A stretch of 64,000 nucleotides of DNA from a virus: the IMG/VR virus record IMGVR_UViG_3300020156_000448, positions 32,001 to 96,000 of that record, one strand, 5' to 3'. The notes below the pieces were generated by a model, which made no database searches, had not been told where the DNA came from, and saw only the letters and a list, made by a program, of their open reading frames with translations. Of this stretch, positions 9,938 to 49,395 are shown piece after piece; the first letter of the stretch is position 1; the number at the start of each line of letters is the position of its first letter. Both the position numbers and the translations under genes were made by a program.

Positions 9938-11446
9938 TTATCGTAAATTATCTATAATTTTTTCTGCACAAATTTGCATCTTTTGGTAAATTTCTTCTGT
10001 GCGTTGAGCAATGGTGTCAGAAGCCTCCACATAAGAAGGAAAATGCTTTTGAAAAGCATCAGAGTATACATCTTTATCTTGATCCTCATACATGTAAATT
10101 CCTTGCCCAATAAAATGATTAACAATTTGAACTTGGTCTCTAAGTCTCTCAATCATACTTTTAGTTTCTGGGTCATTCATATCTGCTCCATTTTCAAGTA
10201 AATGTCGCATAATGTATGTAGTTTCATCAATTTCTACGCTAGCCTCGAAGGTTGGGACTAAATCGATGTTGTTTTCTAGTTTGTAGGCTGCGTGCCCATC
10301 AAACGAACCATAAAATTCATAGTTCGCAATTTGATTAGCTAATGCGTGAGCCTCAATTTCATCTACAAAAGATTCATTTTTAATCGATTCAATACAACTA
10401 ACTACTCCCGCAATAAACTTAGAATTTACGCTCAGATGTGTCACTAGCTTTTCAATCTTGTCGTAATTAAAATTACCGTCCTCATATAGGTTGGTACTTA
10501 TATAACTTACTAGTATATTATCCTGATCAACTAGGTCATCTATAGAGAAGCCGCCCACATCGTTTTGCATAACAATATCTGCATCTGTTGTTTTAGCTAA
10601 AAGTTCTAGCCTTGATTTATAATGTTCTAGATTAACTTTATTTTGTTCCCATAATTGATTAATCACTTCTGCATCAAGAGGCATATTGGGATGCAAGCCT
10701 CTTGGGTTATTTTTTCTATAGTTAGCCCCCACCTCTTTGACCAAAGAGTTGTTTAAATCTACTCTAAATTCTAACTCCCCATCGTCTGATCTTTGAGTAT
10801 ATATATTGGAAGCTGCTAATTCGGCATCTTCTTCAATGGTTTCTTTCGTTGAAGAATAGTCTATAGCGCCCAATACGGTCTTTCCAAACCAACTTCCGAA
10901 TAAATTATGATCATGTTTAGCATCTATTGGCTCAGTGTTTGTGTTTAAAGAAATATCTATTAAGTTCTGATCATTATCATCTAAGAACGCTGTCTCTCCC
11001 TCTTCGAGTTCAGCAACATATTCACTCTTTTTGGCAACTCCGTCAATGATGACATCATCAAATAACTCATAAATTCCAAAGGCTCGCAACAACAATACTA
11101 CTGGCTGAGCGTCATCGGAAACACCCTGCTTATCGCTTGCAGAGACAATATATAGATTTTTACCCTTACTTTTTAAGGAAAGCAATTGCTCTTTAAAGCC
11201 TTTTTCTAATTTGACCTTGCTACCTTTTGAATCTTCAATTAAAGTGTTGCTAATGAGCTTATATGGCGCTTCTGTGGCAGCAGCATATGATAGACCACCT
11301 TCAGGATTAGTGACTTCCCAAATTGTGTCATCGGCGTCGAAGATGATTGTATCATATTCGTTCAAATCATAACCTGCTACCTCTGTAGGTTTCATGTTCA
11401 TCTGAGTTAGCAATTCACTAACATCATCATTTCTATTACTTGGCAT
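9938..11446 (-). CDS. HAD-superfamily (Mdp-1-like) phosphatase fused to an unknown C-terminal domain
   Basis: Motif I IIFDADDTIW, motif II VSAS, motif III KK, motif IV FLDDND; start moved to ATG 11446 (GGAG RBS) from the ORF-track start 11503. Confidence 0.7.
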   Translation of the reverse strand: MPSNRNDDVSELLTQMNMKPTEVAGYDLNEYDTIIFDADDTIWEVTNPEGGLSYAAATEAPYKLISNTLIEDSKGSKVKLEKGFKEQLLSLKSKGKNLYIVSASDKQGVSDDAQPVVLLLRAFGIYELFDDVIIDGVAKKSEYVAELEEGETAFLDDNDQNLIDISLNTNTEPIDAKHDHNLFGSWFGKTVLGAIDYSSTKETIEEDAELAASNIYTQRSDDGELEFRVDLNNSLVKEVGANYRKNNPRGLHPNMPLDAEVINQLWEQNKVNLEHYKSRLELLAKTTDADIVMQNDVGGFSIDDLVDQDNILVSYISTNLYEDGNFNYDKIEKLVTHLSVNSKFIAGVVSCIESIKNESFVDEIEAHALANQIANYEFYGSFDGHAAYKLENNIDLVPTFEASVEIDETTYIMRHLLENGADMNDPETKSMIERLRDQVQIVNHFIGQGIYMYEDQDKDVYSDAFQKHFPSYVEASDTIAQRTEEIYQKMQICAEKIIDNLR

Positions 11447-11912
11447 TGTATTTCTCCGATCCGCTATAAGCCTTTTCTTTAAGCTCCAATATGGCTTCTC
11501 CATGTTTCGTTACATCATGCTTTATTTCAAAAATTTTACCCTCTAAGCTCTCAATCGCCTTAGCATTATTATTAATCCTCACATCGTTGACGGTTGCTTT
11601 GGTCGATATTTCATGAATGTCTTTGCTAATTTCTTTATATTCTTCTTTGCCATTATAATTAAGGGTAATTAAAATACTCGCAATGCCAACAATAGCACAA
11701 ATGCCAGCAAATGCCAGATTTAGCCAACTATCGACACTAGGCTTCTGGGGCTTTTCATCAGCAGAGAGCATATTTTCTAATATTTTCTTAGCTAAATACT
11801 GATCGGTCATCTTACTAAAAAATTGTTTATTTCTAGTAATAGCCATGTCTAAGTCTTGGATATGCTCGTTAGCAGCCTCTAACTCTTCTATATTAATCTT
11901 CTTTTTATCCAC
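11436..11912 (-). CDS. single-pass membrane protein with coiled coil
   Basis: Hydrophobic segment WLNLAFAGICAIVGIASILITLNY followed by a heptad-rich tail. Confidence 0.55.
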   Translation of the reverse strand: MDKKKINIEELEAANEHIQDLDMAITRNKQFFSKMTDQYLAKKILENMLSADEKPQKPSVDSWLNLAFAGICAIVGIASILITLNYNGKEEYKEISKDIHEISTKATVNDVRINNNAKAIESLEGKIFEIKHDVTKHGEAILELKEKAYSGSEKYNAK

Positions 11913-11915
11913 GAC

Positions 11916-13139
11916 TTACCTCTGTTTGTTTATGCGATCACTGCCCTTTACAATCTTCTTGTCAACTGAAGCGAAAGTCTTCTGAAAGTCTTTCCATGAT
12001 TTAATTTTGCTAATTCTGTCTCTTCTTTGCTCCCGACGCTTACGGTTTCTGTATTCTTTACGTCGCTGGATTCTCTCGTACATATGAGTATTATTATAAG
12101 CTGTTTTATACCACGATTTAGTATCTTCAAGATACAAATGATCCTTAACTGTGGAGACAGTTCCCAACTGAGAATCTAGCAAATCAATTGCTGTAGTAGA
12201 ATCTATTAGGTCTTGTATATAAAGGCTTGCTAAAGCCTGCTGAAGATTATTCTTAATGTCAGTATTAAGTAAATCTTGATAAGCAAGACATAATTGCAAC
12301 TTGTTCGCTGTTTTATCCAAGCTACATAAAACATTAGAAGCAGCCATATACTTGATTCCCATTTGCCTCTTTATTGAATGATCAAATATTTCATGAGGAA
12401 TCGGAATAGTATCGTATAGCTTGTATTTTTTAAACATAGCATCCGCCTTCTCATTGTCTATATCAAAGATGTCTCTTACAAGATTTTCAACAAAGCGCTC
12501 ACTTCTATCTGCTGTAGCTTGTGGTAAAAGTCCTATGCCGTAAGGAATTTCCTTTTTAAGGTCTTCTGTTGGTTCTAGTTCAAACTCCAACTGAAAACGC
12601 ATCATTCTTAAAATAATAAATGGATTAAACTCAATGGCGCTTCTGGCTGGAATAGGAGTTCTAATAACCTTGTTCTTTATCAGGTCGTCATAGCCTTGAC
12701 CAGTAACATCCAAAAATTTCTCATTAATTACATCGTAGCACATGGTATCGATTGTAAAGTCTCTCTCATAAATATTCTTATAAAGAAAAGTAATCGGAAT
12801 TCCTAGGCGCTGCATTTCGCCTTCTATTGGAAAGTGCACATGAGGATTATCAATACTCTGAAATTCAAAGTTATAACCATTGCATACTATTTTTTTTGTA
12901 CCTGTGTACTCGTACACAATAGGCTCTCCAAGACCAAACCTCTTTGAAAAATCCTGCAAAATTGCTTCCATTTTTCCTTCACGCGAAATCACATCAAAAT
13001 CTTGAATATCTTCGACTGGAACACCAAGCAGCCAGTCGCGCACGAATCCACCAACAATCAATGGATAATCACCAACTGCCTTGCCTGACTGTGCCAGTTT
13101 TTGAAAAGCATCTACTAGATTTTGAGGTAAGTCGCGCAT
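11916..13139 (-). CDS. class II (CCA/poly(A)-polymerase family) nucleotidyltransferase with a divergent templating motif and basic C-terminal extension
   Basis: IVGGFVRDWLLG...QDFDV catalytic motif; ERDFTID; motif D reads EFNPFIILRMMRF instead of xEDPLRxLRxxRF; tail ERIQRRKEYRNRKRREQRR. Confidence 0.85.
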   Translation of the reverse strand: MRDLPQNLVDAFQKLAQSGKAVGDYPLIVGGFVRDWLLGVPVEDIQDFDVISREGKMEAILQDFSKRFGLGEPIVYEYTGTKKIVCNGYNFEFQSIDNPHVHFPIEGEMQRLGIPITFLYKNIYERDFTIDTMCYDVINEKFLDVTGQGYDDLIKNKVIRTPIPARSAIEFNPFIILRMMRFQLEFELEPTEDLKKEIPYGIGLLPQATADRSERFVENLVRDIFDIDNEKADAMFKKYKLYDTIPIPHEIFDHSIKRQMGIKYMAASNVLCSLDKTANKLQLCLAYQDLLNTDIKNNLQQALASLYIQDLIDSTTAIDLLDSQLGTVSTVKDHLYLEDTKSWYKTAYNNTHMYERIQRRKEYRNRKRREQRRDRISKIKSWKDFQKTFASVDKKIVKGSDRINKQR

Positions 13140-13140
13140 A

Positions 13141-13503
13141 TTATTTTCCTTTTAAGTGCGTAATATCAATCAAATCCCAAAATTTGGTTCCAATATGAAC
13201 ATTACGATCACTAAACCAATCTTTGCGTGTTTCAATAACATACTTAACATTATAGTCTTTTGAATTAACGGGCTGTTCCTGATTTGCTTCTAATTGAGCT
13301 ACGTGAACTAAAGAGCCACCCATGTCAAAGAAAGCCACATCAATAGGGAAAGAGACATTTTTATTCCAAAATGACTGCCTTGAAGGTCTATCAAAAACAA
13401 AAAGACCGCATTCATCATCGGGAAGAGGTTCACTAAACATTAACCCTTTTTCTCTATCTCTTTCATTAATTGCTAAAAGTGTTATTTTTAGTCTTCGTTC
13501 CAT
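13141..13503 (-). CDS. DUF192 family protein
   Basis: A.....REKGLMF...L..DE.GLFVF......FWNKNVSFPIDVAFFD...YVIE..WF signature. Confidence 0.85.
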   Translation of the reverse strand: MERRLKITLLAINERDREKGLMFSEPLPDDECGLFVFDRPSRQSFWNKNVSFPIDVAFFDMGGSLVHVAQLEANQEQPVNSKDYNVKYVIETRKDWFSDRNVHIGTKFWDLIDITHLKGK

Positions 13504-14165
13504 TCCTTAATAATTCTCCATTTTCCATTGTTATCTCTAACTATTTTTTCACCTTGATTTGGAGAAGGAAACTCCAAAGCTGGTGTATTTTGAGTGCTAC
13601 AAGTCTGAATAATATTCTTTAGGCAACGTGAAGTCTTAGATAAAGAAGAAGAATTATCAAGCATTAACTTAACCAATATTTCATGCCCTTTATCTGTCAA
13701 ACTTACGTCATGCCCAGCGCCCTTCAATAACCCCTGTGCCTTTAAGCGATTAAGCTCGTTATCTGAAAGGTTTGAAATCCTAAACACCTTCTCTGGGGCG
13801 TTACTTGAATCTTGGATAATGCTTGCACTATCCCACGCTTTAAAAAGTAAACTCTTATCCTCTTCGGCTGTTACTTGATGAAATCCATTTGATTTCATAA
13901 TTTGTTCAAGAAGAGGGGAAACATTAAAATACATGACCCCATCACCACTGGCTGTTGGCGCTGAGGAGTTATTAAGAACATAATCAACCAAGCTTCTTTG
14001 ACCCATATTAGACCACTGGAGCTTATCTGTTATATGTTGAGATGGACCCTGCATGGTATTTTGGTCAAAACCATGAGCAGGAAAGAAGTTTTGTGCAACC
14101 TTTACCATTCCGTTCTTTTGCGCAACACGTTGCTGATGTGCATTGGGAGTTCTAAAAAAACGCAT
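13488..14165 (-). CDS. hypothetical protein with a possible winged-helix segment
   Basis: ELNRLKAQGLLKG....VSLTDKGHEIL resembles a wHTH wing; N-terminal RVAQ and KVAQ motifs. Confidence 0.5.
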   Translation of the reverse strand: MRFFRTPNAHQQRVAQKNGMVKVAQNFFPAHGFDQNTMQGPSQHITDKLQWSNMGQRSLVDYVLNNSSAPTASGDGVMYFNVSPLLEQIMKSNGFHQVTAEEDKSLLFKAWDSASIIQDSSNAPEKVFRISNLSDNELNRLKAQGLLKGAGHDVSLTDKGHEILVKLMLDNSSSLSKTSRCLKNIIQTCSTQNTPALEFPSPNQGEKIVRDNNGKWRIIKEWNED

Positions 14166-14206
14166 AATTCACCGCCATTAAAATTGATCTTGTTCTTATT
14201 ATACTA

Positions 14207-14232
14207 TTTAATGTATACAAATACAAAATCCT
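14207..14232 (-). promoter_or_regulatory. candidate SigH-type late promoter (weak)
   Basis: Minus strand CAGGA-N18-TAAA followed by TAGTATAAT, in the only sizeable intergenic gap of the NTase cluster. Confidence 0.35.
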
Positions 14233-14247
14233 GCGGGAACATTGGCG

Positions 14248-14985
14248 CTATATGATAAATTGCTCAAAACCATACTCTTGCAGCAATCTCTTTCCATTGT
14301 CTGGATTGGGCTTTAGTATTTTCTCAATAGTTTTTGAAGCCTTATCAATATCTATTTCAGTTAGAATATGTTCTCTATGTTTTCTAATGGCTGCATCAAG
14401 CTCATTATCTATAGTGAAATCATATCTGTTAGCAAAAACTAATGCTCGAAGAGCAATTATGGAGTTTGTCTTAACTGATAAATCTGCATTGACAGGACAT
14501 CTAATAATCCCATCATCCAAATCTTTTTTTGCCGTACCTAATACGTCATAAATTTTACCGCTTCTCAAGCTCATGATTAATGTATTTATAGTAAAATCAC
14601 GAGAAATAATATCAAAACTTAAATTGTTTTGGGGAAGATTGGTTTTTCTTAACTCAGGAAGAAGATCAAAGTTTTTTAAATTAGCCTTACAATCAATGTC
14701 CAAGCCATTGACACTAAGTTTTCCTGTACCTGTTTTATGGCTATATTCAACAGGAACACCAAATCTCTCTGCTACCGCGCCTGCTAGATAAAGACCGTGA
14801 TAATTTTCCGCCATAAGGTCAATATCGCTTTCACGTGTATGTTCTTTGCCCCAGTATTCATCTCTGCAAAATCCACCTACTGCAAATGCAATGAATCCTA
14901 AAGAATGCGTAATTTCGTCTATTCCGTTTAGCACAGAATAAACAACTGCTTCCTCTTGGCTTTTTGGCTTTTTATTTATTGGCAT
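14248..14985 (-). CDS. minimal class II (CCA/poly(A)-polymerase family) nucleotidyltransferase with a divergent templating motif
   Basis: AVGGFCRDEYWG...SDIDL; SRDFTINT; motif D reads KTNSIIALRALVF; head and neck plus a short body only (245 aa). Confidence 0.82.
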   Translation of the reverse strand: MPINKKPKSQEEAVVYSVLNGIDEITHSLGFIAFAVGGFCRDEYWGKEHTRESDIDLMAENYHGLYLAGAVAERFGVPVEYSHKTGTGKLSVNGLDIDCKANLKNFDLLPELRKTNLPQNNLSFDIISRDFTINTLIMSLRSGKIYDVLGTAKKDLDDGIIRCPVNADLSVKTNSIIALRALVFANRYDFTIDNELDAAIRKHREHILTEIDIDKASKTIEKILKPNPDNGKRLLQEYGFEQFII

Positions 14986-14994
14986 TCATATCAC

Positions 14995-15417
14995 CTATTT
15001 AGAGCCTCTAACAATACCTTTTTTATCCAAAGCTTCGTTTGCCCAATCTCTAATAGTGCCATTGTTTAAATGATTTACAAGCTCCATTGCATTAAATCGT
15101 TTCATTACAAGTGGAACGTTACACATTAAAGCTTCTCTAAATATGTCGTCCTTCGGCTCGCATCCTGATATAAATACAGCCTTGTGACTCAAACCCATTT
15201 TATGTAATTCGTTATATACATCTATGCCACTTATTCCATTGAGATAGAGATCAATTATATAATAATCTACCAAAGGTTCGAATCTACCATCTTGAACTGT
15301 CTTCAATGCTTCTTGAGCACTGCTTACAAATTCAGTCTCATGACCCAGCGCTTTAAACATTTCGGACAATGTAAAAGCTGTCAGTTCGTGATCATCTATG
15401 ATGCATACTTTTAGCAC
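14995..15417 (-). CDS. single-domain (CheY-like) response regulator
   Basis: IIDDHE acidic pocket, phosphoacceptor in IIDLYLNGISG, FISG, conserved Lys in MKRF; no output domain. Confidence 0.9.
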   Translation of the reverse strand: MLKVCIIDDHELTAFTLSEMFKALGHETEFVSSAQEALKTVQDGRFEPLVDYYIIDLYLNGISGIDVYNELHKMGLSHKAVFISGCEPKDDIFREALMCNVPLVMKRFNAMELVNHLNNGTIRDWANEALDKKGIVRGSK

Positions 15418-15430
15418 AATTCACTCTCCA

Positions 15431-16957
15431 TTAATCCTTGTTAATCCTTATACTAAAGACTGTGTTTCCAGGCTCACTACTCTCTAGATTTAGTTCCATA
15501 TTGGCATTAGAAGCAAATACCTTGCTCAAATATAATCCTAAGCCTGTACCTGGAACTTCTCTAAAAGGTCTAAAAAAAGGATTAAACAAACGGTATTGAA
15601 GATTTGATGGGATGCCTCTACCATTATCCCTAACTTGAATTAAGTAATAATCTTCATTCTCTACAACATCAACTACTATCTTGCCTTCCTTTCTACTATA
15701 CGCCTTATCTTTATAGCTTGCAATAGCCTTTCTTGCATTGCTCAGCAAATTGATAACAACCTGTCTTAATATGTTATTTGCAGCAATTGCTCTAATTGAA
15801 GCAGGACCATTATATAATATCTTGATTTGGTTTTCTTTATAATCGGAACTTAGACAATATGTTTTAATAGTTTCCTGTAGTAAAACCGCTAAGTCTACTT
15901 CTTTTGTGTCACCTATTATAGCTTGTATTATATCTTCTTCAGTATTGTAACCCCGAATACTTCCAAAGCTCATAATGTTGCCTACAATTGTTTCAATAGA
16001 ATTTGCCGATTGTTTGATTGCTTGCAGGTATTCTAATTTCTTATCCGCTTCTAGGTCAATCAGTCCTTTGACATTACCTATTAAAAGATCAGCAGCGTTA
16101 TCTATTGCCTGAACTGGTGATCTTGTTTCATGAGTAATGCCAGAGATGAATGAATTAATAGCAGTAATTGTAAACTTTTGCATCTCTAAACCAAGAGTAT
16201 CCTTGAACTCGTTTAATTCTTGAACTGGATTTCTTATGGCTAATCCAGCAATATATATATCTCCTCTATAGCAATTAAAAGGGAATTTGAATACGAGCCA
16301 ACTAACCATGTCTCCTGTAGCATCTGGAACTTCTTCAAACAACTCTACGGGAACGTTTCCCTTAAGCATCATTTTGTCATGTTCTACTAATTCGGCTGCT
16401 ACACTTTTAGGGAATAAATCAAAATCGGTTTTACCAATTACTTCCTCTACTGAACTTCGTGCAAGTTCAGCAAATCTCTTATTGACATAAATGTACTCAC
16501 CTTTGCTATTTTTCATAAAAGCTATTGCTGGACTGTTTTCCATAAAGCTTTCAAACAAAGATTGACTTCTTCTTAATTCAAGATCGGCTTTAACTCGTTG
16601 TGTAATATCTTGGATAAAACGATAATGACCTTGAAAGACCATATCCTCATTATAGCATGCTACAATAACTAGGCGTTTATAATATACTTCACCGTCCTTT
16701 TTGACGCCCTTTAGTTCTAATTCGGTTTTACCATCTTGCAGCATCTTTTCAATAGCGCTATTGGCTTCATTATGACAATCTGGATGAATCGTGGTCGTCC
16801 ATGGCTTACCAATTAACTCATTCATATCATAACCACATATATTCGCGTAGGACATATTCAAGGAAATGTATTCTCCCTCAGCATTAATCAATGCTATTCC
16901 ATCCAATGCGTGCATCATAATATTATTGAATTGATAAAGACCCTCATTCTTATCCAT
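15431..16957 (-). CDS. cytoplasmic PAS-PAS sensor histidine kinase
   Basis: Two PAS/PAC repeats (…QDITQR…); H-box ITHETRSP; N-box QVVINLLSNARKA; G1 DNGRGI; F-box LFNPFF; G2 GTGLGL; no TM segment. Confidence 0.93.
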   Translation of the reverse strand: MDKNEGLYQFNNIMMHALDGIALINAEGEYISLNMSYANICGYDMNELIGKPWTTTIHPDCHNEANSAIEKMLQDGKTELELKGVKKDGEVYYKRLVIVACYNEDMVFQGHYRFIQDITQRVKADLELRRSQSLFESFMENSPAIAFMKNSKGEYIYVNKRFAELARSSVEEVIGKTDFDLFPKSVAAELVEHDKMMLKGNVPVELFEEVPDATGDMVSWLVFKFPFNCYRGDIYIAGLAIRNPVQELNEFKDTLGLEMQKFTITAINSFISGITHETRSPVQAIDNAADLLIGNVKGLIDLEADKKLEYLQAIKQSANSIETIVGNIMSFGSIRGYNTEEDIIQAIIGDTKEVDLAVLLQETIKTYCLSSDYKENQIKILYNGPASIRAIAANNILRQVVINLLSNARKAIASYKDKAYSRKEGKIVVDVVENEDYYLIQVRDNGRGIPSNLQYRLFNPFFRPFREVPGTGLGLYLSKVFASNANMELNLESSEPGNTVFSIRINKD

Positions 16958-16964
16958 TTTACTC

Positions 16965-17444: not shown

Positions 17445-20400
17445 TTATTCCCCCATGAACATAGGCATACGGCTGGTGATATTGTTTTCATAACCAGTAA
17501 GGTTTACCCTATATTTTTCATTATGTCTCAAAAAGTCCATTACAGACATCAAGTTACCGAATTTAATTGGCTTATCTGGTCTATCATAAGCTCTCATCAT
17601 ATAATTTCCAGATTGTTCATCTTGATAAAAATACAACATTCTTCTATGACCTTTATCAATGTTTTCTGGACGCTCTCTGCCAGAGTCCATATCAATCTCA
17701 AATTTGAATTTATAATTCGGGTATTCCTTATCGTGTAATTGGTCCAAATTTTGATGATTATTATTTCCTGGGGTCAACCTACTTGGATCAGCATCAGGAA
17801 TTGGCTCAGGACTAATTGGATATAGAGAATTCATTAGCTGTGCTGATTTAACGCTTGCGTAATAATCTCTCATAGGTTCTGCTGGATTAATATTGCCATG
17901 CATAGAAGATGGATTAGGGGTAAGCACAATGGATTTACGTGGTCGGTCTTTTGGTTGATCTTTAACCTGACCTTTGCCGCCTCCAAGATTAACCTCATTA
18001 GCTTTATCATCAGAATTCCATCTATTTGATCTTGGCTGAGTTTTCATTACAGGATAAATATCTTTAGCAATCTTTCTAAACATAGAAGTCATAGACGCGA
18101 GAGTATTCTTAGATGCTTCTTGCTTAATAAAGCTGGCTGCTTCTTCTTTTGAATTAACTCTTTTTTGCATCTGCGCCCTCACAAGGTTACTAATAAGTGT
18201 GTTCATCCAAGCTCCAGGTTTAATGTCTGGATTTACTTCTTTAACGATATTAAGAATTTCGTTTCCATTTAATAATGGTGTAATTACTTGTTTTCCTTCA
18301 TCTTTAATATTGCGATAGTTAGAGTACAACACCTCTTCAACTGCGCCTTTATCTACAGCAATAGCAGGATTGACCAAGATAGGCAGAATAGACAGAAGCC
18401 AACTACCTGCTGGCTTGCCTGTAATTTCTGCTGCCAGCGCTAATTTCTTCACTATATCGAAAGCTTGATTTCTGCTTGTAATTTTCTGGTCAATTTGCAA
18501 ATCAACAAGCTGTTTGTTTAGTAACCCAATCCATCTCAAATCCTTCGAAATCATGCTTCCAAATAGGGTCATTATTTCATTGCCATTGATAAATGGAGTC
18601 AATCTGCCTTGAATTCTCTGGAGACCGCCATTCTCATCCTGCTGTAAATGCTGTAGTGCAGCAACAAGATAATCATCTGTATTTCCAGGCTCTTTATGAG
18701 CGCGTCTATCAGCCATAGCTAACATAAGAAGATCAAAGATTTCATCATTCATCTTTTTGCCATATGCGCCCTTCATTGTAATCAATAGTCTTCCAAGCTG
18801 CGACTCAAGTTGAGTAGGGTCATTGATGACTTTATCAAGTCCTAGAACCTCATCATGCATTTTTACCAATGTGCTAATATTGGTAATTTCTTCCGTTGAG
18901 AATTTTAAACGCTGCAAATTAGCAAGAGTCTGCTCTGTCGATATTTCAGGGTGCCCAAAGTATCTTCTTTTTGAGACATTGCCTTCGCCATCGAACTCTT
19001 CCTGATAGCCTTTATCACCTTTAAACAATTTGCCTACATCATGAAATAATGCAGCCATATTGAGAGTAAATAACTTTTGAGGGTCTTTCACTCCATGTTG
19101 TTGTACCACTTGCTGCAAATGACTCATAACAGTCATTGTATGATCCCAAATGGATTCGTAGTGGTGTGGGTTCAAATGATCCATATCCCAGTTCTGCTCT
19201 GCCTGAACGGGAAGCTTTAACACAAATTGAAGGAGTCCACATTCCTTCATGAGCTTCAGGCTTTGTGCTGCGTTCGGAAGACTCATAATTTTTCTGAATT
19301 CTTCAGCTACTCTTTCGGCAGAAAGCTTTGGAGTATAATCATATTTCCAAAATTCAGAGTCTAATTCGTCGCCTTTTACGCCAATTAGATGTGGATTTTG
19401 TTTTATATAATCTACAATTGGGCTATCGATTTTAAAATCATGCTGGGCTGCTTGCCTAATTGCACGTAAAATACGAAGCGGGTCATCTTGAAAAATAGTA
19501 TCAATGGCGCTTGGGTCAGTGATTCTGATTGTTTTTTCCTGCACGTCTTGTAGCCCATGTCCTGTTGGATCATGAAGCGCACCCTCTATATCGCCTTGAA
19601 TATATTTATCGAGATCAAGGAACATAGCATTCATGCCAAAATCTCTGCGATTGGCATCCTCTTGAAAATTACCCATCTCTGTTCTTGGTTTGCGGCTTCC
19701 AGGTTCATATCTTTCTGTGCGAGGATATGCAATTTCCACCTCTCCAATTGGAGTAGGGACAGCATAAATACCGAAGGCTTCGCCTCTAGGAATTTGCCTT
19801 CCAAATTGCTTTGCTAATAATAAGCTGGGATTTATCGATGTTTCGAATGGGGCATTAGATATTAGCTGTGGTTTCTTTTTAGAATTATCCATATAATCAA
19901 TATCGGCGGTAATTCTAAAAAACTCTGATCTATAGTCAGATTGTTCTAAATTAAAGCTATTAACACGAACGAGCTTCTTTGCGCCCTCAAGATTATTTTG
20001 TATAAAACTCATTGGATCGCGCTGTGCTTCATCAATGAATGGCTGAATCTGTCTCATGTAAGTCTCAGTATCAGCTACATCCACCATAATATCTAAATCT
20101 TTTGGAGATTTTTTGCCAACCAATAAATCACGAACAAATCCGCCAGTAGCATATGGAACTAGTCCAACGGCACGAGACTTCTCAACAATATCTGATATCA
20201 CCTCCATATACTCTTGAGGAATGCTTATTTGTCTATTGTAAGCCTGTGCAAAATTAAACAGGTATCTTGCAAATGATCCTGTTTTTTTCATGTTTTTTGC
20301 ACCAGCCATCCATACCCAATCAGGTCCATATTCTTGATCCATATCCGCTACAAACCCACCAAGCTCCTCTGCTTCTTCAGGAGTAACTGTGGGTTTTTTA

Positions 20401-23400
20401 TTTGGTAAGCCAACACTCAACGAAAGCTCTTTTTTAGCATAATCAATAATAAAATCATACATAGATTGTGGTATGACATCACTGAAAATTTCATTCTTAC
20501 TATATTCGCTCGCATTTGATAAGGAAGCTGGAGGATCAAACATATACATTAATAAATCTGGCAATGTAAAAATCTGCCTAGGAACATTGGAATTCTTATG
20601 CAAGTATATTGAGATAGAGTCTCGCATACCGCCTTGAACAAATTGATCCACTTTGACTTTAATCCCATTGACCATTTGCTGGAAATCAGGTCTTTTCTGA
20701 ACATTAGATATAAATTCATCCCTAGTATTAGGGAGAGTTAACATCGTATTTTCTTCTGGTGGGATAACCTTGTTTGGAAACGTTACGAGTTTTTTGCCTT
20801 GATCAAACTCTAGCCTTTCCTGAGTTTTAGACTTAAGATACTGCTGCATAAAATATTTAGCAAACATATGCGTTAGATTCTGAATTTGCTGTTCTCTAGG
20901 AACTTTTTTTCCTGATTCAAATACGCTCTGCTCATATTCTACAAGCATCTCTCCCACAGTTTCCATCGCTGCTTCTCTATTCATTCCTTGAAACTCGATA
21001 GGGAAATTTTCGATAAGTTCAGATTTTATTTGCTCATTCATTCCTGCCGTAATTCGTGCATCAAAAGGGAATTGAGAATTGAAGAAAGCATATAACCTTT
21101 GTTTCATATGCTGAAGATTACCGTATTGAAACGCTAAAAGCTCAGTTGGCTCCGTTATCCATCCTCCAGCGGTTTGATAGTTACTGCTATCATCAATACC
21201 CACTCCAGTTAAATGGTGACTAACCTCATGCCATAAAGTATTTTCTTCTGAAAACGAAATGGTTTTGTCTTCTGGCTTAATACCTAAAAATTTCTCAAGA
21301 TTTTCAGCAGCATTTACCATGTCGTTTTCAGTTACGTCGCCTTTGGTAAAAACGAAAATTGTTGGATTGTCAGCGATCCCATATGATGGAGAATAAAACC
21401 CATTCATTTGGTATGGGCTATATCCCGCGTTTGCTAAATCTTCTGCTCCGAAGTGGCTAATAAATTTTTGACTGTCAACTAGATAAATATCCAATTCTTC
21501 AAGCTTGTTCATAGCAATTTCATAAGCTTTCTTATAATTACGTTTCCCATCATCATCGCGCCCAGTAAATACTTCTTCAGTATTATCTGTATATCTTTGT
21601 AGAAATGTTTTACAATACTCCATCAATTCAGGGAAGTCACTTACTTTCTTTTTGACCACGCCATTTTCCGCTGCTAAATATGATTTCATTCCTTCTCGCA
21701 CATCGTTTTTTGCTTTGGCGGTTTGGTGTCTTATTTCAGCACGAAGAGTATTTAAAAACTCTTGATCATTCTCATCTCTAGTTGTAATTGCAGAAATGAC
21801 CTTTAGTGCATCTGTCATATATCTTTTGGTGGTCTCGTAGACTACTTCGGGTGAAAATAACCCTGAACACAAAACAAACCACACCTGAGAGGCTTTTGCC
21901 ATTGAGTCAATAATTTTAGGCGGAAATGCTGCCATGATTTCCATGGTTGCATTAAAATCACTATCTAGTGGTCTGCTCCAATGTGGTGGATTATCAGGAT
22001 CATAATCTTCTTCCTTGGTTGGATTATTGCCACTTATAATCATGGAAGCCAAGAAGCTGCCTGCACTCTGAGTATATTTCCGAATTATAGCATGCTTAGA
22101 CATGTCTATATAAAAATTTTCCACTGCCAAATACTCGCCAGCGGCTTCTCTTGCCTTCGCAGTATCCAACTCTTTATAAAACCACTCTTTAAATGCTTGA
22201 GCTTTTTGCGGACCTGGAGCAAGACTACTATCTATCATTCTAGAGGCGGCAGATGCTTCAATAGCACTAAAAAAATATCTATCGTTTTCGAGTTTGGAAT
22301 CATAAAAGTTAACATAATCTTCGTACATGTTTCCAAAAGGATGAATTTGCCTGTTGTCTTCATCAATTAAAACAAGATTACCCTTGTATTGTTGCGCCTC
22401 TTCAGTGCTCTTGGAGTATCTTTCAATCTCACTTTCAGAGCTAGTAATTGATAGGCTTGCATCCTCTGGATATACTGATACTGTTTCTTTTAATTTTGCA
22501 AGAGTTTCTTCCTTAAAATTTACGCCACAAACAATGAACATTTCCGCTTGGATTGTATTATTGACATCTTTGTAATAATGAGACTTTGTTTCAGGATCGT
22601 GGAATTCTACTAATCCCTGTTGCTTGGCATTAAATAACCCATCTATAATTGAAATTATTTCTTGTGGCGTTTTTGAATAGAAAGGATAGCCTGCGCCTAA
22701 TTTCTCTTCTCCAACTCTTTGAAGTACCTTATGTTCAAAAGAACCATAGTTATATATGGCAGGAAGAATACTAGAATGGAAATCTCGTATTTTTTTATTC
22801 TCTCCCTTGTCACGCTCGCCTATCGGATATCCATCACTGTGCTTATACCCGATTCTCAGAGATTCTGTAAGCTCCATCAGCGCTTCAGGAGTAGGGAAGC
22901 TGAAGACGCGCTGCATTAAATCATATTTGGAATTAGCATCAGTAGAAAATATGGAATTCCATATTTCAGGATGGCGTTGACTCAATTCATCAACCATCCA
23001 TTTTGGATATCTATTAATACTCGAAAATACTCCGATGGCTGACTTGGGAGAAATCTCTAGCGTCATTATGTCTTTATATATATCATCTGTAAGACTATTA
23101 GGTATATCGGTTTTCCATTTTCCATTCCTATACATCTTGGAGGCATCTTCGTCGTGCACTTTAAACAACGACCATAAAGTAAACGCTTCTTGTTCTGGCG
23201 TACCCTTAGTTCTTCCTAGATATTTTTGAGCCAAATCCCAGTAATACCAGCCACCAAGAACATCTCTTTCCATAGCCAAACTTAACTTGTACTGACTAAA
23301 ATAATAATGATTGGGATATTTTTGAAAAAGAATACAGTCTATAACAGTATTTGTATGGGAATCTAAACCGAACTTTGTCACTGTAGATAAAATCTCTGGT

Positions 23401-23522
23401 GGAGCAGTATTTTCATCATACTTCATATACTCTTCTGCATCAAACGACTGAACACCGCGAAAGAAATCATCCGCGCCTGCGAGCATGATCATTTTATTGA
23501 AAATATTATTAGATTTTCCCAT
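17445..23522 (-). CDS. giant multidomain protein: unknown N-terminus + HEXXH zincin-like domain + CCA-adding enzyme with HD domain and duplicated tail domain
   Basis: LWHEVSH (about 21216-21230) with downstream PTE; TGGFVRDLL...DLDI (about 20130); loop RTERYEPGSRKP; EDANRRDFGMNA; FQDDPLRILRAIR (about 19480); HD motifs HTM, FHDVGK, GHPE, MHD, ADRRAH; two [FL][IL]NGNEI tail repeats. Confidence 0.85.
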   Translation of the reverse strand: MGKSNNIFNKMIMLAGADDFFRGVQSFDAEEYMKYDENTAPPEILSTVTKFGLDSHTNTVIDCILFQKYPNHYYFSQYKLSLAMERDVLGGWYYWDLAQKYLGRTKGTPEQEAFTLWSLFKVHDEDASKMYRNGKWKTDIPNSLTDDIYKDIMTLEISPKSAIGVFSSINRYPKWMVDELSQRHPEIWNSIFSTDANSKYDLMQRVFSFPTPEALMELTESLRIGYKHSDGYPIGERDKGENKKIRDFHSSILPAIYNYGSFEHKVLQRVGEEKLGAGYPFYSKTPQEIISIIDGLFNAKQQGLVEFHDPETKSHYYKDVNNTIQAEMFIVCGVNFKEETLAKLKETVSVYPEDASLSITSSESEIERYSKSTEEAQQYKGNLVLIDEDNRQIHPFGNMYEDYVNFYDSKLENDRYFFSAIEASAASRMIDSSLAPGPQKAQAFKEWFYKELDTAKAREAAGEYLAVENFYIDMSKHAIIRKYTQSAGSFLASMIISGNNPTKEEDYDPDNPPHWSRPLDSDFNATMEIMAAFPPKIIDSMAKASQVWFVLCSGLFSPEVVYETTKRYMTDALKVISAITTRDENDQEFLNTLRAEIRHQTAKAKNDVREGMKSYLAAENGVVKKKVSDFPELMEYCKTFLQRYTDNTEEVFTGRDDDGKRNYKKAYEIAMNKLEELDIYLVDSQKFISHFGAEDLANAGYSPYQMNGFYSPSYGIADNPTIFVFTKGDVTENDMVNAAENLEKFLGIKPEDKTISFSEENTLWHEVSHHLTGVGIDDSSNYQTAGGWITEPTELLAFQYGNLQHMKQRLYAFFNSQFPFDARITAGMNEQIKSELIENFPIEFQGMNREAAMETVGEMLVEYEQSVFESGKKVPREQQIQNLTHMFAKYFMQQYLKSKTQERLEFDQGKKLVTFPNKVIPPEENTMLTLPNTRDEFISNVQKRPDFQQMVNGIKVKVDQFVQGGMRDSISIYLHKNSNVPRQIFTLPDLLMYMFDPPASLSNASEYSKNEIFSDVIPQSMYDFIIDYAKKELSLSVGLPNKKPTVTPEEAEELGGFVADMDQEYGPDWVWMAGAKNMKKTGSFARYLFNFAQAYNRQISIPQEYMEVISDIVEKSRAVGLVPYATGGFVRDLLVGKKSPKDLDIMVDVADTETYMRQIQPFIDEAQRDPMSFIQNNLEGAKKLVRVNSFNLEQSDYRSEFFRITADIDYMDNSKKKPQLISNAPFETSINPSLLLAKQFGRQIPRGEAFGIYAVPTPIGEVEIAYPRTERYEPGSRKPRTEMGNFQEDANRRDFGMNAMFLDLDKYIQGDIEGALHDPTGHGLQDVQEKTIRITDPSAIDTIFQDDPLRILRAIRQAAQHDFKIDSPIVDYIKQNPHLIGVKGDELDSEFWKYDYTPKLSAERVAEEFRKIMSLPNAAQSLKLMKECGLLQFVLKLPVQAEQNWDMDHLNPHHYESIWDHTMTVMSHLQQVVQQHGVKDPQKLFTLNMAALFHDVGKLFKGDKGYQEEFDGEGNVSKRRYFGHPEISTEQTLANLQRLKFSTEEITNISTLVKMHDEVLGLDKVINDPTQLESQLGRLLITMKGAYGKKMNDEIFDLLMLAMADRRAHKEPGNTDDYLVAALQHLQQDENGGLQRIQGRLTPFINGNEIMTLFGSMISKDLRWIGLLNKQLVDLQIDQKITSRNQAFDIVKKLALAAEITGKPAGSWLLSILPILVNPAIAVDKGAVEEVLYSNYRNIKDEGKQVITPLLNGNEILNIVKEVNPDIKPGAWMNTLISNLVRAQMQKRVNSKEEAASFIKQEASKNTLASMTSMFRKIAKDIYPVMKTQPRSNRWNSDDKANEVNLGGGKGQVKDQPKDRPRKSIVLTPNPSSMHGNINPAEPMRDYYASVKSAQLMNSLYPISPEPIPDADPSRLTPGNNNHQNLDQLHDKEYPNYKFKFEIDMDSGRERPENIDKGHRRMLYFYQDEQSGNYMMRAYDRPDKPIKFGNLMSVMDFLRHNEKYRVNLTGYENNITSRMPMFMGE

Positions 23523-23542
23523 GATGAATAAGTGTACCTCAA

Positions 23543-24205
23543 TTAATTTCCTTGTTCATTGTATACGAATCTTATCTTATTTTTCTTTAAAAGATTCTTG
23601 ATTGGATCAATTGCGATACCAACACTTATTCCTTGTGAGTCGGTGTTTTTAGAGTTAAGCACAGCTACAGCTATGCCTATAACAGCTTGCTTTTCTAGAG
23701 AATATATCAAACCACCAGAATTTCCAGGATTAGTTCTTAAATCCAGCAAGAAATAATTATCACTTTGACCATCTTGTGCCATGTTGGTGTTAGAAACAAT
23801 TCCATAAGAAACTGTATTCTTATAACCCAAAGGGCTTCCTACAGAAACTACTGCTTCTCCCTCTTGGATTGTTCCGCTATTACCAAGATTTAGAAAGTAA
23901 GTATTAACTTGAGAAGGAGCATTAACATATACAATTGCAACATCCATATTAAGATCATAGTCTACAACTTGGGCATAAAATCTCCCGCCATCAGTTGTGT
24001 TTACGACTATGGATTTAATATCAGGATTTGGTTGCTGTGGGGTTATTCCCAAAACATGAGCACATGTAATAACAATTCTAGGGGCGACAAAAAAGCCTGC
24101 CCCTATATCTCCTGCATTTGAAGCCATATGGACTTCAATCATTACACTGGAGCTTTTGATTTGACTTACATAGTCACTCATTTTTTGAGCGGTCTTTAAA
24201 GCCAT
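23543..24205 (-). CDS. trypsin-like (S1C/HtrA-type) serine protease, no PDZ domain or signal peptide
   Basis: Catalytic triad motifs ITCAHV, DVAI, NPGNSGG; VGSPLG..NTVS.GIVS. Confidence 0.9.
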   Translation of the reverse strand: MALKTAQKMSDYVSQIKSSSVMIEVHMASNAGDIGAGFFVAPRIVITCAHVLGITPQQPNPDIKSIVVNTTDGGRFYAQVVDYDLNMDVAIVYVNAPSQVNTYFLNLGNSGTIQEGEAVVSVGSPLGYKNTVSYGIVSNTNMAQDGQSDNYFLLDLRTNPGNSGGLIYSLEKQAVIGIAVAVLNSKNTDSQGISVGIAIDPIKNLLKKNKIRFVYNEQGN

Positions 24206-49378: not shown

Positions 49379-49395
49379 TCTTATATTTCTCCTAC

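What the first reader, a model, noticed from the sequence alone, without database searches (positions are those of the whole stretch)
9938..24205. Candidate undescribed phage RNA-end editing/repair and signalling system: three class II nucleotidyltransferases, a HAD phosphatase, a two-component pair and a protease in the late region
Seen: between terL and the fibre genes lie, in transcription order, a trypsin-like protease, a 2025-aa zincin/CCA/HD protein, a Zn-finger protein, a PAS-PAS kinase, a receiver protein, a short NTase, a wHTH-like protein, DUF192, a second short NTase, a membrane protein and a HAD phosphatase. They are almost all tightly coupled. Established: single CCA-adding enzymes occur in large phages, and HD and HAD domains heal 3'-phosphate or cyclic-phosphate RNA ends (the HD domain of E. 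coli CCA enzyme, the HAD domain of T4 Pnkp). Inference: this is a dedicated and possibly virion-delivered module that restores or re-labels tRNA 3' ends damaged by host defences (CCA-end cleavage, toxSAS pyrophosphorylation, MenT-type additions), perhaps gated by the kinase. I know of no described system with three paralogous NTases in this context.
Basis: partly seen in the sequence, partly recalled or inferred. Interest (0 to 1): 0.92.

Follow-up and report, generated by a model that had tools for sequence, protein, structure and literature searches.

The report
Phage RNA-end enzyme cluster, partly conserved
An uncultured soil phage carries a tight block of genes, including a giant protease-like protein fused to a tRNA-tail-building enzyme and two stripped-down relatives of that enzyme, whose core is kept in the same order in very distant phages, so it is probably a working unit acting on RNA ends, though no activity has been measured.

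Summary
In detail: eleven co-directional, tightly packed genes at 9938-24205 carry the named domains. The record is a 125-kb soil phage piece with no tRNA genes.

Two very distant relatives (terL 27-29% identical) keep, in the same order, the HtrA-like protease, the zincin-like giant with its CCA/HD enzyme (fused or adjacent), a wHTH-like protein, DUF192 and a short nucleotidyltransferase (NTase); one of them also keeps a Zn-ribbon and an HAD protein. They lack the kinase and the receiver.

The three NTases are not equivalent.
- The giant carries a complete CCA-type enzyme with the templating motif (DDPLR).
- The two short ones belong to a separate phage clade. It has lost the templating Asp and Arg (NPxI) and the tRNA-binding body and tail.

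DUF192 also sits beside terL in unrelated phages.

My reading, at 0.4: an RNA 3'-end repair and tailing unit built round a polyvalent-type giant protein. Virion delivery and kinase gating are untested.

Earlier notes of this scan describe template-less phage NTases and an NTase-DUF192 fusion on other DNA.

Verdict: a new variant of a known kind.

The parts
25598..27565 (-). Terminase large subunit (655 aa), upstream anchor of the block
   Evidence: phrog_2, 7.9e-14. Relatives in G001 and G002 at 27-29% identity.
23543..24205 (-). HtrA/DegP-like serine protease domain (220 aa), no PDZ domain
   Evidence: Trypsin_2, 81.4 bits. degP_htrA_DO, 93.3 bits, below the cut-off. Triad H50, D88, S163 invariant in the 3 relatives aligned.
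20223..23522 (-). Giant protein, residues 1-1100: zincin-like N-domain with invariant HExxH (765) and Glu (794)
   Evidence: About 31 relatives, mostly standalone proteins of 1000-1270 aa. Invariant columns in A2. No Pfam or PHROG family. Gluzincins are the top structural rows, but only at Z 5.4-6.1.
17445..20222 (-). Giant protein, residues 1101-2025: complete class II CCA-type NTase (head, neck, HD body, duplicated tail) plus about 300 aa of unknown tail
   Evidence: PolyA_pol, PolyA_pol_RNAbd and HD. PDB 3wfo aligned through the HD and tail. TIGR02692, 128.8 bits. phrog_2244, 5.7e-42. Motif D is DDPLR.
16965..17444 (-). 159-aa protein with a CxxCxG...CxxCxGxG zinc-finger motif
   Evidence: Sequence. 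phrog_4517, 2.8e-5. Weak relative in G001 at the same position (7.4e-6).
15431..16957 (-). Soluble PAS-PAS-HisKA-HATPase_c histidine kinase (508 aa), specific to this lineage
   Evidence: Pfam. H, N, G1 and G2 boxes readable in the sequence. No relative in G001 or G002.
14995..15417 (-). Stand-alone receiver domain (140 aa), no output domain, specific to this lineage
   Evidence: Response_reg, 48.8 bits. No relative in G001 or G002.
14248..14985 (-). Short class II NTase 'N245': head and neck only, template motif lost (KTNSI)
   Evidence: PolyA_pol, 46.4 bits. 9 close relatives at 45-81% identity. Motifs. Clade support 1.0.
13488..14165 (-). 225-aa wHTH-like protein, always just upstream of DUF192
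   Evidence: Relatives in G001 and G002 next to DUF192. Weak winged-helix likeness only.
13141..13503 (-). DUF192 protein (120 aa)
   Evidence: PF02643, 73.6 bits. PDB 3m7a and 3pjy, both of unknown function. Relatives in G001 and G002. Weak support for contact with N407.
11916..13139 (-). Short class II NTase 'N407': head and neck, a small alpha/beta domain, and a 60-aa Arg/Lys-rich C-terminal helix. Template motif is EFNPFI.
   Evidence: PolyA_pol, 44.0 bits. 16 close relatives. Alignment A1. Model pLDDT 81. Foldseek 4wby 5e-13 over 276 columns.
11436..11912 (-). 158-aa protein with one predicted membrane segment; no relative found
   Evidence: Sequence. No family hit.
9938..11503 (-). 521-aa protein: N-terminal MDP-1/HAD-IIIC-like DxDxT phosphatase domain and an unknown C-terminal 320 aa
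   Evidence: Sub-threshold Pfam and NCBIfam hits. The G001 relative (889 aa) reaches Acid_PPase 28.6 against a cut-off of 27. Motif DADDT read in the sequence.

Best explanation
The block is a conserved phage unit of enzymes that act on RNA 3' ends, with lineage-specific additions.

Shown:
- A core is inherited together, and in one order, across phages that share almost nothing else. It comprises the HtrA-like protease, the zincin-like giant with a CCA/HD enzyme, a wHTH-like protein, DUF192 and one or more short NTases in both relatives, plus a Zn-ribbon protein and an MDP-1-like HAD protein in one of them.
- The zincin-like N-domain and a complete CCA-type enzyme are fused in several lineages and are neighbouring genes in another.
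- The phages encode no tRNAs.

Inferred:
1. The giant is a polyvalent-type protein. Its CCA/HD part rebuilds or heals the 3' ends of host tRNAs when they are trimmed or blocked. It may act after release by the zincin domain or by the neighbouring serine protease.
2. The short NTases have intact catalytic carboxylates but no Asp and Arg template and no tRNA-binding body or tail. They are RNA-end tailing enzymes of another nucleotide or substrate specificity. They work with DUF192 and perhaps the wHTH-like protein as partners. In N407 the Arg-rich helix would hold the nucleic acid.
3. The PAS kinase and the receiver are a recent insertion that may tune the unit in this lineage only.

Delivery in the virion is possible but not shown.
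For: Synteny:
- G001 order: terL, trypsin-like, Zn-ribbon, 251-aa wHTH-like, DUF192, NTase349, HAD889.
- G002 order: terL, trypsin-like, NTase813, 154-aa wHTH-like, DUF192.
- These genes make up most of the few genes shared with G000.

Fusion evidence:
- The N-domain is fused to PolyA_pol and HD in G000, in P0137/G001 (3703 aa), in P0134 (3064 aa), and in fragment P0146, which spans the junction at 58% identity. A fifth protein, P0155 (1653 aa), carries PolyA_pol and HD, but the query matched it only over its NTase start, so an N-domain was not shown there.
- In G002 the N-domain gene (1045 aa) and the CCA/HD gene (711 aa) are convergent neighbours about 650 bp apart.

The giant's enzyme is complete: motifs A and B, DDPLR, and the HD histidines and aspartates are present. 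The alignment to the A. aeolicus CC-adding enzyme 3wfo runs over residues 167-593 of the query.

Other points:
- No tRNA genes in G000, G001 (CheckV 100%) or G002. No Rfam hit in the window.
- RtcB lies 4.5 kb downstream of the giant in G001.
- The short NTases form one clade (support 0.925) apart from the giant-type clade (0.87), and all share NPxI(I/L)LR.
- N245 and N407 relatives lie on contigs of identical lengths in 4 cases: 15961, 20393, 9967 and 31248.
- Complex prediction with DUF192 as partner gave weak support. ipSAE was 0.34 (runs 0.34, 0.42, 0.34) against a best control of 0.01, including the control with the NTase replaced. The runs agreed in at least 49% of contacts and partner pLDDT was at least 81. 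In calibration, 58 of 80 solved complexes and 2 of 110 mismatched pairs reached the mark, but only 7 of the 80 at 0.60 or under.

Literature:
- CCA-adding enzymes are listed among jumbo-phage RNA-repair genes (PMC7824862, passages).
- Host defences that cut tRNA 3' tails exist (PMC12851939, title and abstract listing, reference passage; bioRxiv 10.64898/2026.08.25.746378, passages).
- Zincin-like peptidases are the hub of injected polyvalent proteins (PMC5512222, passages).
Against: - No activity, expression or virion datum exists.
- Only 2 distant relatives could be examined as DNA.
- Order kept by descent in one long operon does not prove a shared function.
- The kinase and receiver are absent from both relatives.
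- G000 itself has no RtcB or Rnl2 ligase in 125 kb.
- DUF192 lies directly beside terL in Kyanoviridae phages (S-SM2, Bellamy) and one gene from the terminase in Eggerthella phage LE2-3. Their DUF192 proteins have no class II NTase. This points to packaging rather than RNA repair.
- The HAD domain scores as MDP-1/HAD-IIIC, not as a polynucleotide 3'-phosphatase.
- The zincin fold is backed only by sequence motifs and by Z values of 6.1 or less.
- Loss of the template Arg does not by itself exclude CCA synthesis. CCA enzymes with that Arg replaced by Ala still make CCA (PMC2532741, passages).
- The G002 NTase813 has a degenerate motif A and may be inactive.
Confidence: 0.4

Rival explanations
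1. The block is not one system. It is a run of separate accessory and core genes that stay together only because they sit in one long co-directional transcription unit inherited vertically. On this view the CCA/HD enzyme, the short NTases, DUF192, the HAD protein, the protease and the two-component pair each serve unrelated ends.
For: - The whole 64-kb window is transcribed in one direction with few gaps, so tight spacing is not specific to this block.
- The kinase and receiver are missing in G001 and G002.
- In G001 a helicase and other genes lie between the protease and the Zn-ribbon gene. In G002 the giant lies 30 kb away from the DUF192 group.
- Promoter-like and terminator-like sites are no more frequent than in shuffles.
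Against: - The block's genes form most of the very few genes shared by phages with 27-29% terL identity, and they keep their order.
- The N-domain and CCA/HD are fused in several lineages.
- The 225-aa protein, DUF192 and a short NTase are adjacent in 3 of 3 records.
Confidence: 0.27
2. The core genes are packaging-linked or virion-carried proteins. They would be loaded into the head near the time of DNA packaging and ejected with the DNA. DUF192 and the short NTases would then serve the packaged genome or the first minutes of infection, not tRNA repair as such.
For: - DUF192 lies beside terL in unrelated phages.
- The block follows terL in all three records.
- The giant has the architecture of polyvalent proteins (PMC5512222).
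- A short motif W[YF][KR]xA is enriched in G002 (7 against 0.29 expected; 0 of 500 shuffles reach it) and in G001 (3 against 0.13; 0 of 500).
- The motif marks N-termini of small proteins, a lysozyme-domain protein (phrog_13211, phrog_2083), the C-ends of 9 of 17 standalone N-domain proteins, and 8 of 15 N407 relatives.
Against: - There is no proteomic evidence, and no capsid, portal or scaffold gene was identified in the block.
- The motif occurs once in G000 itself, which is not above chance (146 of 500 shuffles).
- The giant of G000 lacks the motif at the junction.
Confidence: 0.18
3. The NTases are host-takeover enzymes. They would tail host RNAs with poly(A)-like or mixed tails to speed their decay, as bacterial poly(A) polymerase I does, rather than repair tRNA.
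For: - Class II poly(A) polymerases and CCA enzymes are hard to tell apart by sequence (PMC2532741).
- PcnB models match all three proteins. For N407 the match covers residues 124-403, including the basic C-terminus.
- A PAP lacking the template Arg makes mixed tails (PMC2532741).
Against: - The best NCBIfam and PDB matches of the giant are CCA, CC and A-adding enzymes, not PcnB.
- An HD domain is typical of CCA repair enzymes.
- RtcB lies near the giant in G001.
Confidence: 0.1
4. The CCA-type enzymes mature the phage's own tRNAs that lack an encoded CCA.
For: This is the usual explanation for a single CCA enzyme in large phages with many tRNA genes (PMC7824862).
Against: ARAGORN finds 0 tRNA genes in G000 (125 kb), in G001 (complete by CheckV) and in G002. 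There is no Rfam hit in the window. About a quarter of G000 and most of G002 were not seen.
Confidence: 0.03

Closest known systems
Class II tRNA nucleotidyltransferases with an HD domain (bacterial Cca; A. aeolicus CC-adding enzyme 3wfo; T. maritima 3h37 and 5hc9)
   Same: The giant's residues 1101-1700 have head, neck, HD body and tail, motif A GGFVRD..DLD, motif B RRDF and template DDPLR. The short NTases share the head and neck fold (Foldseek 4wby 5e-13, 5hc9 5.7e-13).
   Different: The giant's enzyme is the C-terminal part of a 2025-aa protein behind a zincin-like domain. It has an insertion of about 80 aa in the head and a duplicated tail. No NCBIfam equivalog cut-off is reached. The short ones lack the Asp and Arg template and the body and tail.
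Polyvalent proteins of phages and conjugative elements (Iyer, Burroughs, Anand, de Souza, Aravind 2017, PMC5512222)
   Same: It is a very large multidomain phage protein with an HExxH...E zincin-like module joined to enzymatic domains. A relative adds a Peptidase_C39-like domain.
   Different: The paper's main text has no occurrence of 'CCA' (its supplements could not be seen). The N-domain matches no Pfam or PHROG family. Injection with the DNA is not shown here.
Phage RNA-repair sets (T4 Pnkp with Rnl1/Rnl2; jumbo-phage RtcB, CCA enzyme, RlaP; PMC7824862)
   Same: A CCA-type enzyme with an HD phosphoesterase, a DxDxT phosphatase-fold protein, and in G001 an RtcB ligase close to the giant.
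   Different: G000 has no ligase and no polynucleotide kinase. The HAD domain is MDP-1-like. Two extra template-less NTases, DUF192, a wHTH-like protein, a protease and a two-component pair are not part of any described set.
Bacterial poly(A) polymerase I (PcnB)
   Same: Same class II head and neck. A basic C-terminal region in N407 aligns to the PcnB model over residues 124-403 (33.5 bits).
   Different: PcnB keeps EDxxR (PMC2532741), and the short NTases do not. The score is far below the PcnB cut-off of 305.65.

Membership tests
Class II CCA-adding tRNA nucleotidyltransferase (giant, residues 1101-1700) | Head domain with motif A GGxVRD...DxD and a third carboxylate | tested here: met
   PolyA_pol, 62.8 bits. 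GGFVRDLLVGKKSPKDLDIMV and VEIAY in the alignment.
Class II CCA-adding tRNA nucleotidyltransferase (giant, residues 1101-1700) | Motif D amino-acid template (E/D)DxxR | tested here: met
   DDPLRILRAIRQ. The role of the motif is taken from PMC2532741.
Class II CCA-adding tRNA nucleotidyltransferase (giant, residues 1101-1700) | Neck, body (HD) and tail domains | tested here: met
   PolyA_pol_RNAbd 35.2, HD 22.5 against a cut-off of 22. 3wfo aligned over query 167-593 and chain 106-501.
Class II CCA-adding tRNA nucleotidyltransferase (giant, residues 1101-1700) | Score above a curated equivalog cut-off | tested here: not met
   The best is TIGR02692, 128.8 bits against 438.8.
Class II CCA-adding tRNA nucleotidyltransferase (giant, residues 1101-1700) | Addition of C, C, A to tRNA 3' ends | not testable with these tools
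   This needs an enzyme assay.
Class II CCA-adding tRNA nucleotidyltransferase (short N245 and N407) | Head domain and catalytic carboxylates | tested here: met
   PolyA_pol 46.4 and 44.0 bits. D47 and D49 are invariant in A1. Foldseek 4wby 5e-13.
Class II CCA-adding tRNA nucleotidyltransferase (short N245 and N407) | Motif D template Asp and Arg | tested here: not met
   N407 family has E(F/Y)NP(L/F)I, with N172 and P173 invariant. N245 family has (T/N)(N/D)PxI. G001 N349 has VNPKN and G002 N813 has NNPVI. In 35 other phage NTases whose motif could be parsed, 35 keep the Arg (11 of 46 could not be parsed).
Class II CCA-adding tRNA nucleotidyltransferase (short N245 and N407) | Body and tail domains that hold the tRNA elbow | tested here: not met
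   N245 ends after the neck (245 aa). The N407 model aligns to solved enzymes over only 222-287 columns, and its residues 270-406 form a small alpha/beta domain plus one long basic helix.
Polyvalent proteins (PMC5512222) | Large multidomain protein of a phage or conjugative element | tested here: met
   2025 aa with at least three modules. Relatives have 3064 and 3703 aa.
Polyvalent proteins (PMC5512222) | Zincin-like metallopeptidase module (HExxH helix plus a downstream Glu helix) | tested here: inconclusive
   H336, E337, H340 and E365 of the fragment are invariant in 23 sequences. Foldseek found nothing at E <= 0.001. VIA-align gave gluzincins (3zuk Z 6.1, rmsd 5.3, 184 aligned; 3dwb 5.8; 4iuw 5.7), all under Z 8.
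Polyvalent proteins (PMC5512222) | Carried in the virion and delivered with the DNA | not testable with these tools
   No proteome is available. No RNA run was listed either.
T4 Pnkp-type end-healing enzyme | DxDxT acyl-phosphatase motifs | tested here: met
   FDADDT, LYIVSAS and FLDDND read in the sequence. The naming of these motifs is recalled.
T4 Pnkp-type end-healing enzyme | Family-level match to a polynucleotide 3'-phosphatase, and a P-loop kinase domain | tested here: not met
   The only hits are Acid_PPase and Hydrolase (Pfam) and MDP-1 and HAD-IIIC (NCBIfam). There is no kinase family hit.
Two-component system | HisKA, HATPase_c and a receiver with the acidic pocket | tested here: met
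   Pfam. THETRSP, DNGRGI, GTGLGL and the receiver DD...D...S...K read. The box names are recalled.
Two-component system | Part of the conserved unit (present in relatives) | tested here: not met
   No BLASTP or phmmer match in G001 or G002.
HtrA/DegP serine proteases | Chymotrypsin-fold domain with a His-Asp-Ser triad | tested here: met
   Trypsin_2, 81.4 bits. H50, D88 and S163 invariant.
HtrA/DegP serine proteases | C-terminal PDZ domain or domains | tested here: not met
   The protein has 220 aa and no PDZ hit. All HtrA models score below their cut-offs.
DUF192 (PF02643) | Score above Pfam's gathering cut-off | tested here: met
   73.6 bits against 27. G002 relative 102.9.

The most novel reading that the evidence does not exclude
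The short template-less NTases, DUF192 and the wHTH-like protein form an undescribed holoenzyme. It would add nucleotides other than C and A to a specific RNA or DNA end. It would travel together with a protease-processed, virion-loaded giant tRNA-repair protein. The whole would be a packaged 'first-minutes' kit that a deep-branching group of soil phages injects to keep translation running against defences that attack tRNA ends. In this lineage the kit would be tuned by a phage-borne PAS kinase.
Probability: 0.15. Interest if true: 0.85.

Novelty: new variant of a known kind. Interest (0 to 1): 0.6.

Why it matters
Defences that cut or block tRNA 3' tails have only recently been described (Cas12a3, Cas13-CASK). 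Phage answers to them are largely unknown.

This block offers testable candidates:
- a giant zincin-CCA/HD fusion that recurs in several phage lineages;
- a phage-only clade of minimal class II nucleotidyltransferases with a rewritten nucleotide pocket;
- a first functional context for DUF192, a family with two solved structures and no known role.

If the short enzymes have a new nucleotide or substrate specificity, they would also be of use as RNA-end labelling tools. The two-component pair is a rare case of a complete sensor and receiver in a phage, though here it looks like a lineage-specific add-on.

Tried and rejected
Searches that found nothing close:
- Near-identical DNA and relatives in GenBank phages: no match for the block. 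terL and the giant gave only distant hits.
- IMG/VR scans with the giant and with terL as single proteins: nothing.
- IMG/VR scan with the N407 alignment: 47 loci, all ordinary single phage CCA enzymes at 23-32% identity.
It gave 3 loci, only one close, and that one is 1968 bp.
- GTDB scan with A1: 60 loci, all cellular-type CCA enzymes, and 0 with DUF192, 225-aa, trypsin, HAD or Zn-ribbon relatives nearby.

Contig-length comparison for 20 N-domain relatives: no length was shared with the short-NTase contigs. This says nothing either way, as most contigs are short.

Fold and feature searches without a usable result:
- Foldseek of the N-domain model against the PDB and BFVD: no match at E <= 0.001.
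- Atlas look-ups for the 225-aa protein and the HAD C-terminal part: no usable feature hit, and structural rows under TM 0.6.

Other negative checks:
- PADLOC: only the protease domain hits protease modules of defence proteins, so a known defence system is not indicated.
- hhalign of the 225-aa family against Bellamy gp123: no likeness.
- Local profile search for a class II NTase in S-SM2 SSM2_109 and Bellamy gp123: none. The NTase-DUF192 fusion reported in note e1-5902102 could therefore not be checked on these records.
- Promoter and terminator scan: not above shuffles.
- Sequencing runs: one DNA soil run, which may be the source; no RNA holder listed.
- Fecal phage locus L078 has almost no ORFs under code 11, and I did not pursue it.
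- Literature searches for DUF192 (22 papers, none functional in the 15 listings seen) and for phage CCA enzymes gave no description of this cluster. Supplements were not seen.

Full report
WHAT IS THERE

The window is bases 32001-96000 of a 125,053-base IMG/VR record. The record is classed as a provirus and judged 76% complete. The same genes stand on a 160,387-base contig.

Every gene of 100 aa or more in the window that has a family hit lies on the minus strand. In the order of transcription the stretch holds:
- terL (27565-25598; phrog_2);
- two ORFs with no family hit;
- an HtrA-like serine protease domain;
- a 2025-aa protein;
- a 159-aa CxxCxG...CxxCxGxG protein;
- a PAS-PAS histidine kinase;
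- a bare receiver;
- a 245-aa PolyA_pol-head protein (N245);
- a 225-aa protein;
- DUF192;
- a 407-aa PolyA_pol-head protein (N407);
- a 158-aa protein with one membrane segment;
- a 521-aa protein with a weak HAD signature.

Gaps between genes run from -68 to 82 nt.

Upstream of terL lie replication genes: UvsX-like recombinase, helicase, ribonucleotide reductase, a Lon-like protease, clamp loader and clamp. The 'fibre' label rests on one weak PHROG hit.

THE GIANT PROTEIN

Residues 1101-1700 are a complete class II CCA-type enzyme. The head, the RNA-binding neck and the HD domain are found by Pfam. The best solved relative is the Aquifex CC-adding enzyme 3wfo, aligned from the head through the HD body to the tail. 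The best NCBIfam model is the actinobacterial CCA enzyme, at 128.8 bits, far below its cut-off. Motifs A and B and the template DDPLR are present.

Residues 1-1100 match no Pfam or PHROG family. An exhaustive HMMER search of 1.84 billion representatives gave 41 hits. About 31 of them cover this N-domain, and most are standalone proteins of 1000-1270 aa. In an alignment of 23 sequences, HExxH and a Glu 25 residues later are invariant.

A model of the conserved core (pLDDT 75.7) found nothing by Foldseek. By VIA-align the rows that cover residues 172-658 are gluzincin peptidases: Zmp1, ECE-1, PepO, neprilysin, LTA4 hydrolase, lugdulysin and BepA. All score only Z 5.4-6.1. I therefore call the domain zincin-like from the motifs and leave the fold open.

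The fusion is not a one-off. PolyA_pol with HD follows the N-domain in a 3064-aa and a 3703-aa protein, and a 153-aa fragment at 58% identity spans the junction. A 1653-aa protein (P0155) also carries PolyA_pol and HD, but the query matched it only over the start of the NTase head, so an N-domain was not shown in it. The 3703-aa protein begins with a Peptidase_C39-like domain.

RELATIVES AND SYNTENY

No close relative is in GenBank phages or IMG/VR.

The N-domain alignment brought in two distant IMG/VR records. G001 has 96,846 bases and is judged 100% complete. G002 has 93,875 bases and is judged 20% complete. I fetched both whole.

BLASTP and phmmer of all G000 ORFs against them show very few shared genes, and most of those belong to this block.
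- G001, reading down the minus strand: two small genes shared with G000, terL, two genes, the trypsin-like protease, three genes, a helicase, a Zn-ribbon protein (a weak relative of the 159-aa protein), a 115-aa gene, a 251-aa relative of the 225-aa protein, DUF192, a 349-aa NTase, and further on an 889-aa protein whose HAD part reaches Pfam's Acid_PPase cut-off. The 3703-aa giant lies at the other end of the record.
- G002: terL, two genes, the trypsin-like protease, one gene, an 813-aa protein ending in an NTase head, a 126-aa gene, a 154-aa relative of the 225-aa protein, and DUF192. Its N-domain protein (1045 aa) and a 711-aa CCA/HD enzyme are convergent neighbours 30 kb away.
- Neither record has a relative of the kinase or of the receiver.

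There are 16 relatives of N407 (44-72% identity) and 9 of N245 (45-81%). Four N245 relatives lie on contigs whose lengths equal those of contigs carrying an N407 relative. I take this as co-occurrence. Contigs of 107,662, 54,119 and 27,841 bases have an N407 relative and no detected N245 relative.

THE SHORT NTases

N245, N407, G001 N349 and G002 N813 form one clade (support 0.925). It stands apart from the giant-type enzymes of the three phages (0.87), which sit with cellular CCA enzymes. The tree is FastTree on 25 sequences with a midpoint root.

All short members keep motif A and an acidic third residue, with one exception. G002 N813 reads GM for GG and Gln for the first Asp. All replace the template (E/D)DxxR by NPxI. 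In the N407 family the Asn and Pro are invariant.

Among 46 other phage NTase ORFs from IMG/VR, the motif could be parsed in 35. All 35 keep the Arg, and none of the 46 loci has a second NTase.

The N407 model (pLDDT 81.2) matches A-adding and CCA-adding enzymes strongly, but only over the head and neck. The rest is a small alpha/beta domain and a 60-residue Arg/Lys-rich helix. N245 stops after the neck.

The paper on these motifs (PMC2532741, passages read) says that the template sets nucleotide choice. A poly(A) polymerase without the Arg makes mixed tails. A CCA enzyme without it can still make CCA with the help of the tRNA. The short enzymes are therefore unlikely to be ordinary CCA enzymes, mainly because they also lack the tRNA-holding domains. 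The motif alone does not settle it.

DUF192 AND PARTNERS

The 225-aa protein, DUF192 and a short NTase are adjacent in all three records, with overlaps or 1-nt gaps in G000 and G001.

A three-chain complex prediction with DUF192 as the scored partner gave weak support. The score was 0.34 against a best control of 0.01. The score fell to 0.01 when the NTase was replaced. The tool's caveat on passes of this size applies.

DUF192 has two solved structures with no assigned function. No functional paper appeared among the 15 listings I saw.

Against a purely RNA-centred reading:
- In cyanophages S-SM2 and Bellamy the DUF192 domain lies inside a Lys-rich protein directly upstream of terL.
- In Eggerthella phage LE2-3 a small DUF192 gene sits one gene from the terminase.
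- Those cyanophage proteins show no class II NTase.

RNA-REPAIR CONTEXT

None of the three records has a tRNA gene, and the window has no Rfam match. Maturation of phage tRNAs is therefore out.

G001 has an RtcB ligase 4.5 kb downstream of its giant. Its match is split, as by an inserted element. G000 and G002 have none, and no Rnl2-type ligase is found in any of the three.

The HAD domain has the DxDxT motifs but scores as MDP-1/HAD-IIIC. It has no kinase partner.

CCA enzymes are listed among jumbo-phage RNA-repair genes (PMC7824862). Defences that cut tRNA 3' tails are in print. The polyvalent-protein paper describes zincin hubs in injected giant proteins but never mentions CCA in its main text.

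A MOTIF SEEN IN PASSING

W[YF][KR]xA is far above chance in G002 and G001. It marks:
- N-termini of small proteins;
- a lysozyme-domain protein;
- the C-ends of 9 of 17 standalone N-domain proteins;
- the linker before the basic helix in 8 of 15 N407 relatives, including G000's own.

It could be a docking or cleavage signal. In G000 as a whole it is not enriched.

VERDICT

The block is real and unusual, and its core is conserved over a great evolutionary distance. That supports a functional unit.

The giant is best read as a polyvalent-type protein carrying a true tRNA 3'-end repair enzyme. The short NTases with DUF192 are a separate, undescribed sub-module of unknown substrate. The kinase pair is an add-on. 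Virion delivery, gating and every activity remain inference.

Earlier notes of this scan on other genomes report template-less phage NTases, an NTase-DUF192 fusion and CCA enzymes near packaging genes. They are unchecked leads that agree with what I saw.

Noticed in passing
G002 (L066, L069, L070, L072), G001 (L061, L062, L065); window 12091-12111 (N407 residues 343-349): The short motif W[YF][KR]xA, typically (S/N)WYKxA(Q), is strongly enriched in G002 (7 against 0.29 expected) and in G001 (3 against 0.13). It sits at N-termini of small proteins, on a lysozyme-domain protein, at the C-ends of 9 of 17 standalone zincin-like N-domain proteins, and in 8 of 15 N407 relatives. It is a candidate docking, cleavage or capsid-targeting signal.
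   Followed up: partly
L075 8245-10101 (Bellamy gp123); L077 2969-5095 (S-SM2 SSM2_109); L076 8962-9309 (Eggerthella phage LE2-3 LE23_64): DUF192 lies directly beside the large terminase gene in unrelated phages. In the cyanophages it is embedded in a Lys-rich protein of 618-708 aa that ends in DUF6321.
   Followed up: partly
G001:C1:16010-18319 (L073, L074) and G001 92171-95476: The RtcB match in G001 is split in one 875-aa frame. The terL of G001 is 1101 aa with two separate matching parts. Both look like hosts of inserted elements such as inteins.
   Followed up: no
L071 4487-6928 (G002 NTase813): The C-terminal NTase head of this 813-aa protein has GM for GG and Gln for the first catalytic Asp, so it may be an inactive copy.
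   Followed up: no
window 155-1601: Two adjacent paralogous sulfotransferase-family genes (Sulfotransfer_3, 42.7 and 37.7 bits) lie downstream of the large fibre-like genes.
   Followed up: no
window 42876-45398: An 840-aa Lon-like ATP-dependent protease (phrog_4871, 6.8e-221) lies inside the replication block.
   Followed up: no
G000 17192-17440 (outside the window); G001 48757-49623; G002 37961-38827: An 82-aa ORF of G000 matches 288-aa proteins of G001 and G002 at 67-73% identity over 49 residues. No full-length counterpart was seen in the 125-kb record.
   Followed up: no
L078 (MT835492.1 89281-105508): A fecal phage stretch with a DUF192 match has almost no ORFs of 80 aa or more under code 11. 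This suggests another genetic code.
   Followed up: no
window 17900-18600 (giant residues about 1640-1810): The C-terminal tail module of the CCA-type enzyme (TP(F/L)(I/L)NGNEI...) occurs twice in tandem in the giant.
   Followed up: no
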